This document shows, in pieces, positions 9,252 to 21,272 of a DNA stretch of 64,000 nucleotides (its first letter is position 1; the number at the start of each line of letters is the position of its first letter). The stretch comes from an uncultured delta proteobacterium (GTDB lineage: Bacteria; Desulfobacterota; BSN033; UBA1163), in the NCBI GenBank assembly GCA_963708295.1, contig CAVPSJ010000017.1, forward strand, positions 160,001-224,000, read 5' to 3'. The translations under genes and the position numbers were made by a program. The notes beneath the pieces are model-generated. The model saw nothing but the letters and a program-made list of their open reading frames with translations, was not told where the DNA came from and ran no database searches.

Positions 9252-9294
9252 ATTCCTCCTCGTGAGTGGTCATCCCAATTCCTTTCTCGGTTTT

Positions 9295-11649
9295 ATGAAT
9301 GATCGTTCTCTCAAGCTTCTAGAGTATCATTACCTCTTAAACATCCTGAAAGAGTATTGCACTTCCCCCCTCGGTCGGAAGCGCTGTGAAGCCTTAAGAC
9401 CTTCCCAAGACCTTCCATCGATCCAAACGCGATTGACTGAAGTGATGGAACTTAAGAAAATCCTTGAAACGAAGGGAGAGATCCCTCTCGGCGGGCTGAA
9501 AGATATTGAGGGGTTGTTCAGTAAACTGGAAATCGAAGGATCGGTGCTCGAAGTCCAGGAATTATTGGAGGTCTACCATCAAATCATATTGTGTAAAGAG
9601 CTCAAGCGATTCTTCCAAAAATTGGACGATGTCAAAGTTCCTCATCTTCAGGAGAAGATCTCCAGGCTTTCGTACCAAAAGCCATTGGAGAAGATGATCC
9701 TTCAGACGATCAGCACAAAAGGCGAGATTCTCGACCGAGCCAGCGCGGGCCTTTTAGATATCCGCCAACGGCTGGGAGAGGTCAGAGAAAAGGTGAAGGG
9801 GGTGCTCGAATCCCTTCTCCGTCGAGGGGATCTGCAGTCCATCTTTCAGGAGCAGCTCATTACGTTAAGAAGTGGACGATATGTTGTTCTGATCAAATCC
9901 GATTCGGAAAGACGGCTTGAAGGGATCATCCACGATCATTCCCAGAGCCGGATGACCTACTTCTTTGAGCCCCTTCAGGTCGTTTCCATCAATAACGAGA
10001 TCAATGTCCTCATCGGAGAAGAGAAGGAGGAAGAGTACCGAATTCTGGCAGGCCTGACCGATCAGGTCCGGGAAGAAAGGCAGACCCTCCGGAACGACTT
10101 TGAATTATTGGGAGAGTTGGATCTCCTCTTAGCGATGGCACGGCTCTCCTCCCGTTTGAAGGGGATTTACCCGCTTTTGAATGAGGAGGGCAGAATTGAG
10201 ATGAAGGACGCTCGAAATCCTCTCCTCGCCCTTCAACGTGAAGATCGGGTGGTTCCGGTCACCTTGCGGATGGGAGGTGGGAAGAAAGTCCTGATCATCA
10301 GCGGAGCGAATGCGGGTGGGAAGACCGTTGCCTTGAAGACATTGGGGCTTCTGACGTTAATGGTTCAATCCGGTCTTCCGATCCCCGTGGCAGAGGGAAG
10401 CCACGTTGGAATCTTCCGAGACATTTTTGCGGTGATCGGCGATGAACAGAATATCGAAGAGAATCTGAGCACGTTTTCCAGCCACCTCCTCCATGTGAAC
10501 CAAATCTTAGAGAATGCAGGACCCCATTCCCTTATTCTTTTGGATGAACTCGGGGTGGGAACTCACGCCCAAGAGGGGTGCGCCCTGGCCATGGGCTTTT
10601 TGGATCGATTCCGGGAAAGTGGAGCTTCCGCCGTGATCACCACTCACTTCGATCGTCTCAAGGCCTACGGATACCTCCATCCGGACGTAGAGAATGTGGC
10701 CGTTGAATTTGACGAAAAGACGATGGAGCCCAGATATAGGCTGTCCTACGGGTCGTCGGGGTTGAGCAATGCCTTTCTGATCGCTGAGAAGTTAGGAATT
10801 TCAGAGAAGGTCCTGGAGGCAGCCCGTCTTCATCGGGACGGAAGCGGTGAGGAGATTGCGCATGTCTTGTCGGCTTTGGAGAGGCTAAAGAGGGAGGCCG
10901 AGAAAGAAAAGCGCCAAGCCTCGGAGATGAGGGAGGAGGCCAGGCTCGAACATGAAAGATTAAAGAAAATACTGGAGGCGATCAAGGACAGGAGGCTGAA
11001 AATCTACGCCCAGGCTGAGGAGAGGGCGAGAAAGGCCGTCCAGAAAGTTGAAGAGGCGCTGAAGGAATGGGCCGTTCATAGAAAAGAGGAGAAAATCCCG
11101 CTCTCACTCCAACGCAAAGAAATTCAGGATATCCGAGAGAGGTTTCTTCCCTCCCTTAGAAAGAAGGGACGTCCTGCAATACCGGGTGGCTTGAGGGTGG
11201 GGGAACGTGTTAGAATTGAAAGCCTTCGAAGCACCGGGATTCTAACGGAAGTAAAAGAGCCGCTCAATCGCGTGGAAGTGCTGACGGATAAGGCCAAAGT
11301 AAAAGCTCCCCTCTCTGAAATCGTCCAGGCACTACCGGATGAAGACGATGAAGAGAAAAAGAGGATCCCCGAAGGTCCAGCTCTTTTAAAAGGGGCCGTC
11401 GATGGGCCTTCCTCCCAATTAAATGTCATCGGGTTGACGGTAGAAGATGCCCTTCCAAAAGTTGATAAATTTATCGATCAAGCCCTCCTCCATGGGCTGG
11501 AGAGGGTCCAGATTATCCATGGGGTAGGTTCCGGCAGGTTGCGGGATGCCATCGGTCGATACTTGAGTGGACATCGGGCTGTAAAAAGTTTATCTTCCGG
11601 GGAAGCGATGAAGGGTGGCCGTGGCTTGACCATCGTCGAGTTGAAGTAA
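9295..11649 (+). CDS. mutS2: Endonuclease MutS2
   Basis: P-loop SGANAGGKT, IGDEQNIEENLSTFSSH, LLDELG, C-terminal Smr domain IIHGVGSGRL. Confidence 0.95.
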   Translation: MNDRSLKLLEYHYLLNILKEYCTSPLGRKRCEALRPSQDLPSIQTRLTEVMELKKILETKGEIPLGGLKDIEGLFSKLEIEGSVLEVQELLEVYHQIILCKELKRFFQKLDDVKVPHLQEKISRLSYQKPLEKMILQTISTKGEILDRASAGLLDIRQRLGEVREKVKGVLESLLRRGDLQSIFQEQLITLRSGRYVVLIKSDSERRLEGIIHDHSQSRMTYFFEPLQVVSINNEINVLIGEEKEEEYRILAGLTDQVREERQTLRNDFELLGELDLLLAMARLSSRLKGIYPLLNEEGRIEMKDARNPLLALQREDRVVPVTLRMGGGKKVLIISGANAGGKTVALKTLGLLTLMVQSGLPIPVAEGSHVGIFRDIFAVIGDEQNIEENLSTFSSHLLHVNQILENAGPHSLILLDELGVGTHAQEGCALAMGFLDRFRESGASAVITTHFDRLKAYGYLHPDVENVAVEFDEKTMEPRYRLSYGSSGLSNAFLIAEKLGISEKVLEAARLHRDGSGEEIAHVLSALERLKREAEKEKRQASEMREEARLEHERLKKILEAIKDRRLKIYAQAEERARKAVQKVEEALKEWAVHRKEEKIPLSLQRKEIQDIRERFLPSLRKKGRPAIPGGLRVGERVRIESLRSTGILTEVKEPLNRVEVLTDKAKVKAPLSEIVQALPDEDDEEKKRIPEGPALLKGAVDGPSSQLNVIGLTVEDALPKVDKFIDQALLHGLERVQIIHGVGSGRLRDAIGRYLSGHRAVKSLSSGEAMKGGRGLTIVELK

Positions 11650-16861: not shown

Positions 16862-17355
16862 GGGGAGTTGACGGGGAACAGATGGTCGCTCCTTCTGAGG
16901 GCCCGTAAAGCCGGGCAGTCGGGAGGAGAGGAAAGTCCGAGCTCCGCAGGGCAGGGTGGTCCGTAACGCGGACTGTCCCGGAATCCTGAAACGTAGGGTT
17001 TCGAGATAAGGAAAGTGCCACAGAAAACATACCGCCCAGTGGAATGGCGTGTGCGCCTGCCCACAGGGTAAGGGTGAAAAGGTGAGGTAAGAGCTCACCA
17101 GTGCCCTGAGCGATTGGGGCAGCTAGGTAAACCCCACCCGGAGCAAGACCAAATAGGTTCCGCTCTCCGCTCAGGCGGAGTGAGAAAAGCCCATTCAAGT
17201 TTGTCTCGAGGCCATGCATCGGGGCAAGGGCGGGACGGGTGAGGTCGCTTGAGGTCCTGAGCAATCAGGACCCTAGATAAATGGCCATCCCCCGGTTCCC
17301 GCTGAAAGCGGGATCGGGATGACAGAACTCGGCTTATGGTCCCTTTCAACTCCCT
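16862..17355 (+). ncRNA. rnpB: RNase P RNA (type A)
   Basis: GAGGAAAGTCCGAGCT, GAAAGTGCCACAGAAA, GGTAAACCCC..GGAGCAAG, ACAGAACTCGGCTTA; P1 GGGAGTTGA/TCAACTCCC. Confidence 0.95.
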
Positions 17356-18057: not shown

Positions 18058-20229
18058 ATGAAGAAAGAACTTTCCCCTGACGCAAAAAGACGACGCAATG
18101 AGCTGATCATTATCGGGATCATCTCCTTCCTCATCCTTGTCTTTACGACCGTTGAGATGAAATTCCCGCAGATCGGAGGGAAAATCCCCGTCGCCAACAA
18201 TATCATCATCTTCAGCCTGATCAATATCAACATCATCCTGATTCTCCTGCTGATTTTCTTAGTCATCCGGAACCTTGTCAAACTGATCTTTGAGCGGAAG
18301 CGAAAAGTGTTGGGAGCCAAGCTCCGAACCAAATTGGTGGTGGCTTTTGTCAGCCTCTCTCTTATTCCCACCATTCTCCTTTTTTTGGTAGCCGTCGGTT
18401 TCATCACCAACAGTGTGGAACACTGGTTTAGCGCCCAGGTCGAGCAGTCTCTTCAAGGATCTTTGGAAGTGGCCCAGACCTACTACCGGGATTTTGCCAA
18501 CAACACCGTTTCCACGGCTCAACAGATCAGTAAGCCCCTGTCCAAACAAGGCATCGCCAAGGGGTCACGAGAAATGAGCCAGCTGAGAGAGCAGCTGGAG
18601 GCCAGACGGCAGGAGCATCATCTCAGCACCCTCGGGATATTCTTAAAGGGAGAAGGGAACACGATCGGAGTGGAGGATCCCACGCTCAGGCCTGTTTCTC
18701 TCCAGCTTCCGAAGGATCTGTTAGACGCCGGGTTTTCAGGGAAAGAAGTTTCCAGAATCTTGTCGGTGGGAGAGGGAGAGTTGATCACTGGCATCGCTCC
18801 CATTTTCAACCCTTCGGACGGAAGGGAGGTCCTCGGGGTCGTCGTGGCCTCACACTTTATCCCGAAGAGTCTTACGGTCAAGATGCATGAGATCTCGCAG
18901 GCGTTTCTGGAGTATAAACAATTGAAGATCTTAAAAAAGCCGATCAAGTTTAGCTACATGATGGCCCTGCTGATGGTCACCCTCCTCATCGTTTTTTCGG
19001 CCACCTGGTTTGGCTTTCATTTAGCCAAGGACATTACCGTTCCCATCAAAGACCTGGCAGAGGCGACCGATCGGATTGCCTCTGGAGACCTCAATTTCCG
19101 GATTCAGATGAAAGCGGCAGACGAGATCGGCATGCTTGTTCAATCCTTCAATCAAATGACGGGGGATCTCCAGGTGAGCCGCTCTGAGCTGGAACAACGG
19201 AAAAAGTACATGGAGATCGTGCTGAAGAACGTGGCCGCTGGAGTGATTTCCATCGATGAGAAGGGAAGCGTGACCACGACCAACACCTCCGCAGAACAGA
19301 TGTTGGAGATCAGGGGAGAAGAGGTGCTGGAAAAGAAGTTCTCGGAGGTACTCCCTCGAGAGTATGTGGGACAGCTTGAGCGATTATTGGAGGAGCTCAA
19401 ACTCTCCCGGAAAGATTCTATTGAGAGGCAGATGATTGTGAACCTGGAAGGAAAATCCCTGTCCCTGTTGATCAATCTGACGGCCCTGAGGGATGAGGAA
19501 GGAAAATCTCTCGGGGTGGTGGCGGTCTTCGATGACCTCACCCAGTTGATCAAGGCCCAGAGAATGGCGGCCTGGAGGGAAGTGGCCCGCCGGATTGCTC
19601 ATGAAATCAAGAATCCCCTAACCCCTATTCAGCTTTCTGCGCAACGGCTGAGGAAACGGTACTTGGAGAAACTTCAGCCAGACGGGACAGTTTTTGATGA
19701 ATGCACCCGAATGATTGTAAAACAGGTTGAAGAATTGAAGGGAATGGTCAATGAGTTTTCGAACTTTGCCCGGATGCCGGCTTCCCAACCGACACCGAAC
19801 CATCTCAATGAGATCATTCAGGAAACACTCGTTCTCTTTCAGGGAGTGCAGCAACAGGTCCAGTTTGAATTTATTCCCAATGAGCTTCCTATCCTCAATG
19901 TCGACCGGGATCAGATGAAGCGGGTGATGATCAACCTGGTCAAGAATAGTCTTGCCGCCATTGAAAATGGAGGCAAGATCAGAATCCAAACGAGTTATGA
20001 TTCCAAACTGCAGACGGTCCGCCTTGAGGTGAGCGACGATGGTCGTGGAATTCCTGAAGAGGACAAAGAGAGACTTTTCGAACCTTACTTCTCGACTAAG
20101 AAAAGCGGGATGGGATTAGGATTGACCATTGTCAATGCCATCGTCTCTGATCACAACGGGTATATCCGGGTGCGAGACAACAAACCCAGAGGCACGACCT
20201 TCCTCATCGAGCTCCCCGTCCGCGTTTAA
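18058..20229 (+). CDS. NtrY-like HAMP-PAS sensor histidine kinase
   Basis: KLRTKLV, HAMP (DEIGMLVQSFNQM), AWREVARRIAHEIKNPLTPIQLSA, N/G1/F/G2 boxes. Confidence 0.93.
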   Translation: MKKELSPDAKRRRNELIIIGIISFLILVFTTVEMKFPQIGGKIPVANNIIIFSLININIILILLLIFLVIRNLVKLIFERKRKVLGAKLRTKLVVAFVSLSLIPTILLFLVAVGFITNSVEHWFSAQVEQSLQGSLEVAQTYYRDFANNTVSTAQQISKPLSKQGIAKGSREMSQLREQLEARRQEHHLSTLGIFLKGEGNTIGVEDPTLRPVSLQLPKDLLDAGFSGKEVSRILSVGEGELITGIAPIFNPSDGREVLGVVVASHFIPKSLTVKMHEISQAFLEYKQLKILKKPIKFSYMMALLMVTLLIVFSATWFGFHLAKDITVPIKDLAEATDRIASGDLNFRIQMKAADEIGMLVQSFNQMTGDLQVSRSELEQRKKYMEIVLKNVAAGVISIDEKGSVTTTNTSAEQMLEIRGEEVLEKKFSEVLPREYVGQLERLLEELKLSRKDSIERQMIVNLEGKSLSLLINLTALRDEEGKSLGVVAVFDDLTQLIKAQRMAAWREVARRIAHEIKNPLTPIQLSAQRLRKRYLEKLQPDGTVFDECTRMIVKQVEELKGMVNEFSNFARMPASQPTPNHLNEIIQETLVLFQGVQQQVQFEFIPNELPILNVDRDQMKRVMINLVKNSLAAIENGGKIRIQTSYDSKLQTVRLEVSDDGRGIPEEDKERLFEPYFSTKKSGMGLGLTIVNAIVSDHNGYIRVRDNKPRGTTFLIELPVRV

Positions 20230-20237
20230 AAGAACGT

Positions 20238-20427
20238 AGAGCGCATAGCGCATAGGGCATGGCGTAAGAACCCACCCGCGAATTGACGTCTGCTCACCTT
20301 TCAGAGTAAAGGAATCCTTTGATTTAAGCCTATTTTTCCGGTAAAATAGTTGTAAATAGCCAGGAAGGCGATTTTCCGAGCTATTTAACTTTATAATCGC
20401 TATGCGCTTAGCGCTATGCTCTATGCG
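20238..20427. repeat. Inverted 7-mer arrays (GCATAGC / GCTATGC) bracketing the smpB upstream region
   Basis: gagcgcatagcgcatagggcatggcg ... cgctatgcgcttagcgctatgctctatgcg. Confidence 0.7.
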
Positions 20428-20439
20428 TGGTATTGAGAG

Positions 20440-20901
20440 ATGGGCGAAAAGGTGATTTGCCAGAACAGAAAGGCGTTTCATAACTACTCCATTGAGGAGA
20501 CTTACCAGGCCGGGGTTATCCTTCTTGGGTCGGAGGTTAAATCCTTGCGCGAGGGAAAGGTGAGCCTCGGGGACAGTTACGGTGATATCAAAAGGAGCGA
20601 GGTCTTTCTGGTTGACGCTCATATCAGCCCTTATCCCCAGGCAAACAGACTGAATCACGAGCCGTTGAGGACGAGGAAACTCCTCCTTCACAAAAAGGAG
20701 ATCAAACGCCTCATCGGCAAGGTGGAACAGAGGGGCTATACGCTGATTCCGATCAAGCTCTACTTCGTCGATGGAAAGGTCAAGGTGGATCTCGCTCTCG
20801 CAAAGGGGAAAAAACTTTTTGATAAGAGGGAGACGCTCAAGAAGAAAACCATGGAACGTGAGATGGAAAGGGGGCGAAAAGGGTTCGACGGGGATCGTTG
20901 A
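20440..20901 (+). CDS. smpB: SsrA-binding protein
   Basis: NRKAFHNY, GSEVKSLR, RKLLLHKKEI, LAKGKKLFDKRE. Confidence 0.98.
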   Translation: MGEKVICQNRKAFHNYSIEETYQAGVILLGSEVKSLREGKVSLGDSYGDIKRSEVFLVDAHISPYPQANRLNHEPLRTRKLLLHKKEIKRLIGKVEQRGYTLIPIKLYFVDGKVKVDLALAKGKKLFDKRETLKKKTMEREMERGRKGFDGDR

Positions 20902-21225
20902 CGTCAGGGCTGCATACCGAGGTCCCATTGGCTCGTTAAACAAATGGGATTAAACATAATCGCAAACAACTACGATTATGCCCTGGCTGCCTAAGCGCAG
21001 CTAGGCGTCCTCCCTGTCCTTGCCTGTAGGGCAGGATCAGGATGTCAGAAAAACAGGATAGTCCCTCTCCGAATCCTATAGAAGAGGGGCGAAACCTAAT
21101 AGGATAGTCTCTCGGGAATCCTGCCTGTGGGAGCCCTGAAGGACGAACTCAAAATACAGGCTATGTATGTAGATGTTCTGTCGGAAGGTTCTCGGACGCG
21201 GGTTCGATTCCCGCCGCCTCCACCA
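20870..21225 (+). ncRNA. ssrA: tmRNA, tag (A)ANNYDYALAA
   Basis: 5' GGGGGCG..GGTTCGAC; tag frame GCA AAC AAC TAC GAT TAT GCC CTG GCT GCC TAA; 3' GGTTCGATTCCCGCCGCCTCCACCA. Confidence 0.97.
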
Positions 21226-21235
21226 ATTTTAAATT

Positions 21236-21272
21236 AAAAAAGCCCCAATGATCTTCGGGGCTTTTTATTTTT
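21236..21272 (+). terminator. Intrinsic terminator of ssrA
   Basis: AAAAAGCCCC-aatgatcttc-GGGGCTTTTTATTTTT. Confidence 0.85.

What the first reader, a model, noticed from the sequence alone, without database searches (positions are those of the whole stretch)
20869..20901. smpB stop codon lies inside tmRNA: maturation should create a non-stop smpB mRNA
Seen: tmRNA begins at 20870 while smpB ends at 20901, so the last 10 codons (RGRKGFDGDR) and the stop are read from the tmRNA acceptor strand and D-loop region. Established: RNase P cuts pre-tmRNA at +1, non-stop mRNAs are tmRNA-SmpB substrates, and the SmpB tail is functionally important. I recall a similar overlap reported for the reduced endosymbiont Carsonella. 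Inference: in this non-reduced genome, processing yields a 143-aa SmpB tagged with ANNYDYALAA for degradation. That would be a negative-feedback loop in which translating smpB and releasing tmRNA compete on one transcript.
Basis: partly seen in the sequence, partly recalled or inferred. Interest (0 to 1): 0.75.

Follow-up and report, generated by a model that had tools for sequence, protein, structure and literature searches.

The report
SmpB tail encoded inside tmRNA
In a whole group of uncultured free-living anaerobic bacteria, the ribosome-rescue protein SmpB has the end of its working tail and its stop codon written inside the gene for its partner RNA, so cutting the partner RNA out should turn SmpB's own message into the kind of broken message the pair exists to rescue; this was previously reported only in a tiny insect symbiont.

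Summary
Confirmed. smpB (20440-20901) overlaps the tmRNA gene (20870-21225) by 32 nt; codon 144 straddles +1. The identical overlap is in 13 of 13 close genomes, and 116 of 120 relatives found by the protein core alone read into tmRNA (4 incomplete), so it is a fixed trait of a free-living Thermodesulfobacteriota clade, not an error. One sigma-70-like promoter upstream of smpB is conserved (13 of 13); no internal ssrA promoter is visible, so tmRNA probably comes from the smpB mRNA, and each RNase P cut should leave a non-stop message encoding 143 residues. Unlike Carsonella (the only published case), the tmRNA-encoded residues R144-G-R-K147 sit at E. coli tail positions 153-156, which are needed for tagging. 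The cut product should therefore be inactive: tagging is clean-up, not ArfA-like control. Most likely the overlap limits SmpB output to the interval before processing and is evolutionarily locked in; true negative feedback needs SmpB to speed the cut, which is untested. A second, 8-nt overlap occurs in one unrelated genome. No RNA data were available.

The parts
20319..20347 (+). Predicted sigma-70-type promoter (TTGATT-17-TAAAAT) for a joint smpB-ssrA transcript
   Evidence: Consensus scan; only invariant block in the variable intergenic region; same pattern in 13 of 13 sequences that reach far enough upstream, 6-134 nt before the start codon. Function inferred.
20440..20901 (+). smpB, 153 aa, with complete core and DKR tail motif at 128-130
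20869..20870 (+). Predicted RNase P cut, inside Arg144 codon (A|GG); leader -4..-1 is GAAA in 14 of 14
   Evidence: tmRNA +1; leaders; RNase P processing of pre-tmRNA from PMC3968760. Cleavage inferred, not observed.
20870..20901 (+). Dual-use 32 nt: tmRNA acceptor 5' strand, D-loop and P2 5' strand, and SmpB residues 144-153 plus TGA
   Evidence: Invariant in 14 of 14 sequences; residues 144-147 map to E. coli 153-156
20870..21225 (+). tmRNA (ssrA), one-piece, CCA encoded
   Evidence: ARAGORN; Rfam RF00023
20962..20994 (+). Tag reading frame ANNYDYALAA*
21215..21221 (+). 3' strand of the acceptor stem; the RNase P substrate cannot fold until this is transcribed, about 315 nt after the smpB stop
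   Evidence: Rfam alignment; fold
21236..21272 (+). Terminator-like hairpin with T run, the first one seen after the promoter
   Evidence: Fold; similar hairpins with T runs in L004, L006, L008, L010. The scan did not list it (its loop limit is 8, this loop is 10).
16869..17352 (+). RNase P RNA class A (rnpB), the enzyme expected to make the cut; context, not part of the locus
   Evidence: Rfam RF00010, 263.6 bits

Best explanation
smpB and ssrA are one fused transcription unit. SHOWN: the last 10 codons and the stop of smpB lie in tmRNA nt 1-32, throughout the clade. INFERRED: a single upstream promoter makes one RNA that is first an smpB mRNA and then a pre-tmRNA. The acceptor stem cannot fold until about 315 nt beyond the stop are transcribed, and ribosomes crossing nt 1-32 melt it, so full-length SmpB is made only before, or in competition with, RNase P cleavage. 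The cut releases tmRNA and leaves a non-stop mRNA; ribosomes still on it are rescued by tmRNA-SmpB, and the tail-less 143-aa SmpB, which should bind tmRNA but not support tagging, is tagged and destroyed. The effect is a cap on SmpB yield per tmRNA made (stoichiometric coupling) with trans-translation as clean-up. INFERRED origin: a deletion in the clade's ancestor joined tmRNA +1 into the conserved Arg codon; this frame reads R-G-R-K, close to the usual R-A-x-K/R, and met an existing TGA at nt 30-32. It is now locked in, because a stop upstream would cut the essential tail, so its conservation does not need a regulatory benefit.
For: Overlap in 13 of 13 close genomes; 114 of 120 core-selected relatives end in the tmRNA-derived frame, 2 more enter tmRNA with a frameshift or chimeric end, 4 are incomplete, none has an ordinary tail. 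One clade on a tree built without the overlap (SH-aLRT 98, quick tree). Upstream promoter in 13 of 13; no conserved -10/-35 pair or sigma-54 motif inside smpB; synonymous variation normal at codons 124-133 (0.43 vs 0.34 expected). Acceptor-stem pairing 0.91-0.99 in 12 of 13. Position 144 is R/K in 64 of 67 other loci and 147 is R/K in 56 of 67; E. coli Arg153 and Lys156 contact tmRNA H5 and 16S rRNA, and loss of 154-160 severely reduces tagging (PMC8363625). No other SmpB ends as early as the cut: shortest tail 20 of 67 loci and, of the 144 representatives anchored, 18, against 16 for the cut product. TGA at nt 30-32 already present in 3 of 21 non-clade tmRNAs, including the two nearest on the tree. 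The frame used reaches a stop soonest of the three.
Against: No RNA or protein data. An internal promoter for another sigma factor, or a second ssrA elsewhere, is not excluded; codons 134-143 show a mild dip in synonymous variation (p 0.012 amino-acid-matched, window picked after looking, two other regions of the gene dip further). G145-R146 replace the Ala/hydrophobic pair usual at E. coli 154-155, so the E. coli rules may not transfer. Predicted helix 129-152 has low confidence in its last third (pLDDT 67 then 46). L011's acceptor stem was not predicted by plain folding.
Confidence: 0.58

Rival explanations
1. True negative autoregulation: free SmpB binds the tRNA-like domain at the 3' end of its own mRNA, stabilises the fold against ribosomes and speeds RNase P cleavage, so excess SmpB converts its message into its partner RNA; active trans-translation also speeds decay of the remnant.
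For: SmpB binds the tRNA-like domain elbow and orders the D-loop (PMC3968760), and that D-loop is part of the smpB reading frame here. RNase R decay of non-stop mRNA needs active trans-translation (PMC4176180). Hudson et al. call the Carsonella case a feedback situation.
Against: Two searches found no held paper showing that SmpB speeds 5' processing. SmpB could equally shield the precursor. Lock-in explains the conservation without regulation.
Confidence: 0.2
2. Harmless overlap: most tmRNA comes from a separate start inside smpB (or processing is slow against normal mRNA decay), so non-stop smpB mRNA is a minor by-product with no effect on SmpB level.
For: Several non-clade loci have room and AT-rich sequence for an own ssrA promoter. 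Mild synonymous dips at codons 57-70, 100-110 and 134-143. Consensus scans miss many real promoters.
Against: No conserved internal sigma-70 or sigma-54 match in 14 sequences, while the upstream promoter is clearly conserved. Even with an internal start, every smpB mRNA must run into tmRNA and no terminator is seen before 21236.
Confidence: 0.17
3. ArfA-like gate: the 143-aa form is the active or an active species, normally tagged away and released only when trans-translation is weak.
For: ArfA and BrfA work this way (PMC8012679). A 144-residue solved SmpB aligns to within two residues of the cut (1j1h; that it is the Thermus protein is recalled). Truncation after E. coli 147 or 153 lowers EF-Tu activation only fourfold (PMC3895274).
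Against: The cut removes the equivalents of Arg153, Ile154, Met155 and Lys156. No natural tail that short. K147 is kept in 108 of 110 full-length relatives.
Confidence: 0.04
4. Assembly or sequencing error that removed a stop codon and spacer.
For: All records are from metagenome or uncultured assemblies.
Against: Identical junction in 13 independent assemblies and over a hundred protein clusters.
Confidence: 0.01

Closest known systems
Carsonella ruddii smpB-ssrA overlap (Hudson, Lau, Williams 2014, PMC4131195, citing Mao et al. 2009)
   Same: smpB CDS runs into ssrA on the same strand, so tmRNA maturation should give a non-stop smpB mRNA that is a substrate of its own product.
   Different: Carsonella has a 157-174 kb genome, overlap in only half of strains, SmpB without central loop and tail, and an extension of apparently random sequence and length. 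Here: free-living clade, intact SmpB, invariant 32-nt register in every relative seen, and the tmRNA-encoded residues occupy functional tail positions. The paper found the overlap nowhere else among 2031 genomes.
arfA (E. coli) and brfA (B. subtilis) control by trans-translation (PMC8012679)
   Same: A ribosome-rescue factor whose mRNA is made non-stop by programmed cleavage or termination and whose product is tagged.
   Different: There the truncated protein is the active form and the cut is by RNase III or a terminator. Here the full-length protein is the expected active form, the cut is tmRNA maturation itself, and the downstream piece is the partner RNA.
CDS-t(m)RNA same-strand overlaps in general (Table 4 of PMC4131195; e.g. 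FtsW/RodA with tRNA-Ile in Helicobacter)
   Same: Stop codon inside a processed stable RNA; candidate source of frequent non-stop mRNA.
   Different: About 1 in 15000 mRNAs, and not between a protein and its own RNA partner.
Ordinary adjacent smpB-ssrA gene pair
   Same: Same order and strand; ssrA is smpB's commonest neighbour (PMC4131195).
   Different: 20 of 21 non-clade loci with a nearby tmRNA have the stop upstream of +1 (gaps 0-1023 nt).

Membership tests
SmpB | Family profile above curated cut-off | tested here: met
   PRK05422 211.9 bits (cut-off 130), TIGR00086 188.8 (119.1)
SmpB | Basic C-terminal tail with KGKK and DKR motifs, helical | tested here: met
   KGKK 122-125, DKR 128-130; helix 129-152 predicted, low confidence past 140
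SmpB | Ala/hydrophobic pair at E. coli 154-155 | tested here: not met
   G145-R146 here; Ala in 47 of 67 and Leu/Met/Val/Phe/Ile in 54 of 67 other loci, Arg at 146 in 7 of 67
One-piece tmRNA (RF00023) | Full covariance-model match, acceptor stem, CCA, tag frame ending in hydrophobic residues | tested here: met
Carsonella-type smpB-ssrA overlap | smpB stop lies downstream of tmRNA +1 on the same strand | tested here: met
Carsonella-type smpB-ssrA overlap | Reduced genome; SmpB lacking loop and tail; random, variable extension | tested here: not met
Carsonella-type smpB-ssrA overlap | tmRNA maturation actually cleaves the smpB mRNA | not testable with these tools
   Needs RNA end mapping; the paper also offers it only as an expectation
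ArfA/BrfA-type control by trans-translation | Truncated product is the active form | tested here: inconclusive
   By comparison only: mapping to E. coli data predicts inactivity; no assay
ArfA/BrfA-type control by trans-translation | Protein level rises when trans-translation fails | not testable with these tools
   Needs genetics

The most novel reading that the evidence does not exclude
A self-balancing ribonucleoprotein gene: one transcript is first the SmpB message and then the tmRNA; the tmRNA's tRNA-like 5' strand doubles, under selection on both levels (D-loop AAA giving Lys147), as the code for the SmpB residues that grip tmRNA helix H5; and free SmpB, by binding the tRNA-like domain in its own mRNA, triggers RNase P to convert message into partner. 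Such overlaps have arisen repeatedly in free-living bacteria because tmRNA's GGGG start completes an Arg-Gly codon pair.
Probability: 0.2. Interest if true: 0.8.

Novelty: new variant of a known kind. Interest (0 to 1): 0.58.

Why it matters
The one survey that looked found this overlap only in half the strains of a decaying endosymbiont. Here it is fixed across a free-living clade with an intact SmpB, and a tRNA-like RNA strand encodes residues of its own protein partner at positions needed for function. It gives a compact, transplantable cassette for testing whether RNase P maturation can set mRNA lifetime and protein-to-RNA stoichiometry, and whether trans-translation can regulate its own core factor. 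It also shows that such overlaps are under-counted outside cultured bacteria.

Tried and rejected
Assembly error: rejected. Internal ssrA promoter: sigma-70 and sigma-54 pattern scans and synonymous-site tests found nothing conserved; not excluded for other sigma factors. The 275-aa antisense ORF over smpB: no Pfam match and stopped in 9 of 14 sequences; treated as a shadow. Other lineages with a GFDG-type tail: none among the best 150 of 158 hits of the 50%-identity library; the two other tmRNA-derived tails found (P0122, P0142) are frameshifted copies from this same clade. The L075 overlap is not fixed in its lineage: 11 of 120 relatives end in RG and the two closest do not. The first tail search was biased by its query (120 of 120 with the same tail), so it was repeated on the core alone. 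The careful tree did not finish; the quick tree is cited. Literature on SmpB speeding 5' processing: none found. Mao et al. 2009 is not held. No supplementary files were read; those of the 2025 tmRNA database paper (PMC11915505) could hold these tmRNA sequences.

Full report
OBSERVATION. The window's smpB runs 20440-20901 on the + strand, 153 aa, and passes both NCBIfam SmpB cut-offs. ARAGORN and Rfam agree on a one-piece tmRNA at 20870-21225 with tag ANNYDYALAA. The overlap is 32 nt. Codon 144 (AGG) straddles +1, so a cut there leaves 430 nt: 143 codons and one A. The shared bases form the acceptor 5' strand, the D-loop and the 5' strand of helix P2. RNase P RNA is encoded 3 kb upstream.

IT IS A CLADE TRAIT. 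Thirteen are 85-95% identical over the full length, titled Thermodesulfobacteriota, Syntrophaceae or delta proteobacterium; the next is 64-65%. All 13 have tmRNA starting 32 nt before the end of smpB (12 by ARAGORN; the truncated L001 by Rfam). The 32 nt are identical in 14 of 14 sequences, while four-fold sites upstream differ by a median 49%; the next 35 nt of tmRNA are nearly as fixed (2 variable), so this invariance alone does not show selection on the protein. With tails removed, the 14 form one branch (SH-aLRT 98; quick tree only). A search scored on residues 1-120 only (best 120 listed of 7989) gave 114 proteins ending in the tmRNA-derived frame (98 exactly RGRKGFDGDR), 1 frameshifted into another tmRNA frame, 1 entering tmRNA and then departing, and 4 incomplete; none had an ordinary tail. 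Of the other 67 loci, 21 have tmRNA within the fetched flank; 20 do not overlap and one does. The host is not reduced: 49.5% GC, many anaerobic-metabolism and transport genes, and a 2.97 Mb contig in relative L013.

ONE TRANSCRIPT, PROBABLY. The spacer before smpB varies from 73 to 273 nt, and its only invariant block is TTGATT-17-TA..AT at 20319-20347, found in 13 of 13 sequences that reach upstream (pattern derived from the same alignment). In L012 and L009 the start codon is 6 and 9 nt after the -10, i.e. leaderless or nearly so. Inside smpB no -10-like hexamer is shared by more than 7 of 14, and those shared near the 3' end lack a good -35; no sigma-54 motif. Synonymous variation is normal where a -35 would lie (codons 124-133) and mildly low at 134-143 (p 0.012, chosen after looking, weaker than two other regions). 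The first terminator-like hairpin follows tmRNA. RNase P makes the 5' end of E. coli tmRNA (PMC3968760, passages), and the acceptor stem is predicted with the smpB leader attached in 12 of 13 loci. I infer that tmRNA is cut from the smpB mRNA; this is not observed.

THE SHARED CODONS MATTER. DKR is at 128 here and at 137 in E. coli (PMC4151336, parts 1-2 of 5 read); a 160-residue solved SmpB aligns with the same offset of 9 at the tail (that it is the E. coli protein is recalled). So R144, G145, R146, K147 correspond to Arg153, Ile154, Met155, Lys156. Arg153 mutation impairs tagging; I154D/M155E impairs it (PMC4176180, passages); deleting the last five residues is harmless but the last seven severely reduces tagging, and Arg153 and Lys156 contact tmRNA H5 (PMC8363625, passages). 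In 67 other loci position 144 is R/K in 64 and 147 in 56. The cut product has 16 residues from the Asp of DKR; the shortest natural tails seen were 20 (67 loci) and 18 (144 of 150 representatives anchored). Against: G145-R146 depart from the usual Ala/hydrophobic pair, and truncation at 147 or 153 costs only fourfold in EF-Tu activation (PMC3895274, passages). A hint of selection on the protein within the RNA: 0 of 12 non-clade tmRNAs with the same start and D-loop length would encode Lys at 147 (9 give Asn), while 108 of 110 full-length clade proteins have Lys and none Asn; these sequences are related, so this is weak. Position 151 varies (Gly, Glu, Arg), so the last residues look like passengers. 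The TGA at nt 30-32 is already present in 3 of 21 non-clade tmRNAs, including L014 and L015, the nearest on the tree.

MECHANISM. The acceptor stem needs 21215-21221, about 315 nt after the stop, so each transcript has an interval in which SmpB can be finished before RNase P has a substrate; afterwards ribosomes crossing nt 1-32 and folding compete. After the cut, stranded ribosomes are rescued and the tail-less SmpB is tagged. Tail mutants still bind tmRNA and ribosomes, so removing this product would protect the system. That is coupling plus clean-up (0.58). It is not the ArfA/BrfA logic, in which the truncated form is active (PMC8012679, passages). Negative feedback would arise if free SmpB, which binds the tRNA-like elbow and D-loop, hastens the cut on its own mRNA (0.2); I found no held paper showing such an effect. 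Conservation cannot decide between these, since a stop upstream would remove needed residues and lock the overlap in regardless.

KNOWN CASES. Hudson, Lau and Williams 2014 (PMC4131195; parts 1-4 of 5 read) describe the overlap in Carsonella, cite Mao et al. [quoted passage not shown] The 2025 tmRNA database paper does not mention it in the passages holding smpB, overlap or Carsonella (PMC11915505). Searches (listings and abstract starts) showed no other report; the library omits most subscription papers, and no supplements were read. PMC3022190, PMC3985003, PMC11633108, PMC4236655 and PMC12320835 were seen as passages only and added nothing on the overlap.

A SECOND ORIGIN. L075 (titled Planctomycetia; its nearest named proteins are Omnitrophota) has a real tmRNA (Rfam 164.7 bits) starting 8 nt before the smpB stop, again inside an Arg codon, but after the functional helix. 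It is one genome, and only 11 of 120 relatives end in RG, with no DNA to check.

VERDICT. Observation confirmed and extended to a clade; interpretation partly supported. A new variant of a known but rare arrangement, contradicting its reported restriction to Carsonella, with the new feature that the RNA encodes functional tail positions of its partner. All mechanism is inferred and the clade appears uncultured. Interest 0.58.

Noticed in passing
L075:2946-2953: Independent 8-nt smpB-tmRNA overlap (Arg-Gly-stop read from the tmRNA start), single genome; 11 of 120 relatives end in RG but not the two closest.
   Followed up: partly
P0147, P0185, P0169, P0133, P0261, P0170, P0226, P0218: Unrelated SmpBs with very short tails ending RG or RGx at the same register as residue 144-145; candidates for short overlaps or fragments. 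DNA context unavailable.
   Followed up: no
L012 and L009, smpB start; L071:2950-2951: smpB start codon 6 nt (L012) and 9 nt (L009) after the conserved -10, suggesting leaderless translation; other members have only a weak ribosome-binding site. In L071 the smpB stop abuts tmRNA +1 with no gap.
   Followed up: partly
window 20234-20264 and 20398-20428: Imperfect 31-nt inverted repeat made of 7-nt units flanking the promoter; variable among relatives, REP-like; similar units upstream of tmRNA in L050.
   Followed up: no
window 20864-20866 with 21223-21225: Plain folding pairs the leader's GG (Met142-Glu143 codons) with the CC of the 3' CCA; if real it could slow RNase P, but it is weak and trailer-dependent.
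   Followed up: no
window 9262-11649: MutS2 (MutS_V + Smr), a ribosome-splitting factor in other bacteria, lies in the same gene run as dnaG, rpoD, tRNA-Met, rnpB and smpB-ssrA.
   Followed up: no
window 20119-20943 (-): 275-aa antisense ORF over smpB; no Pfam match and interrupted in 9 of 14 sequences; shadow ORF.
   Followed up: yes
downstream of 21225 in L002, L003, L007, L011, L012, L013: Sequence after the CCA is unrelated among relatives and several lack the terminator-like hairpin, as expected for an integration hot spot.
   Followed up: no
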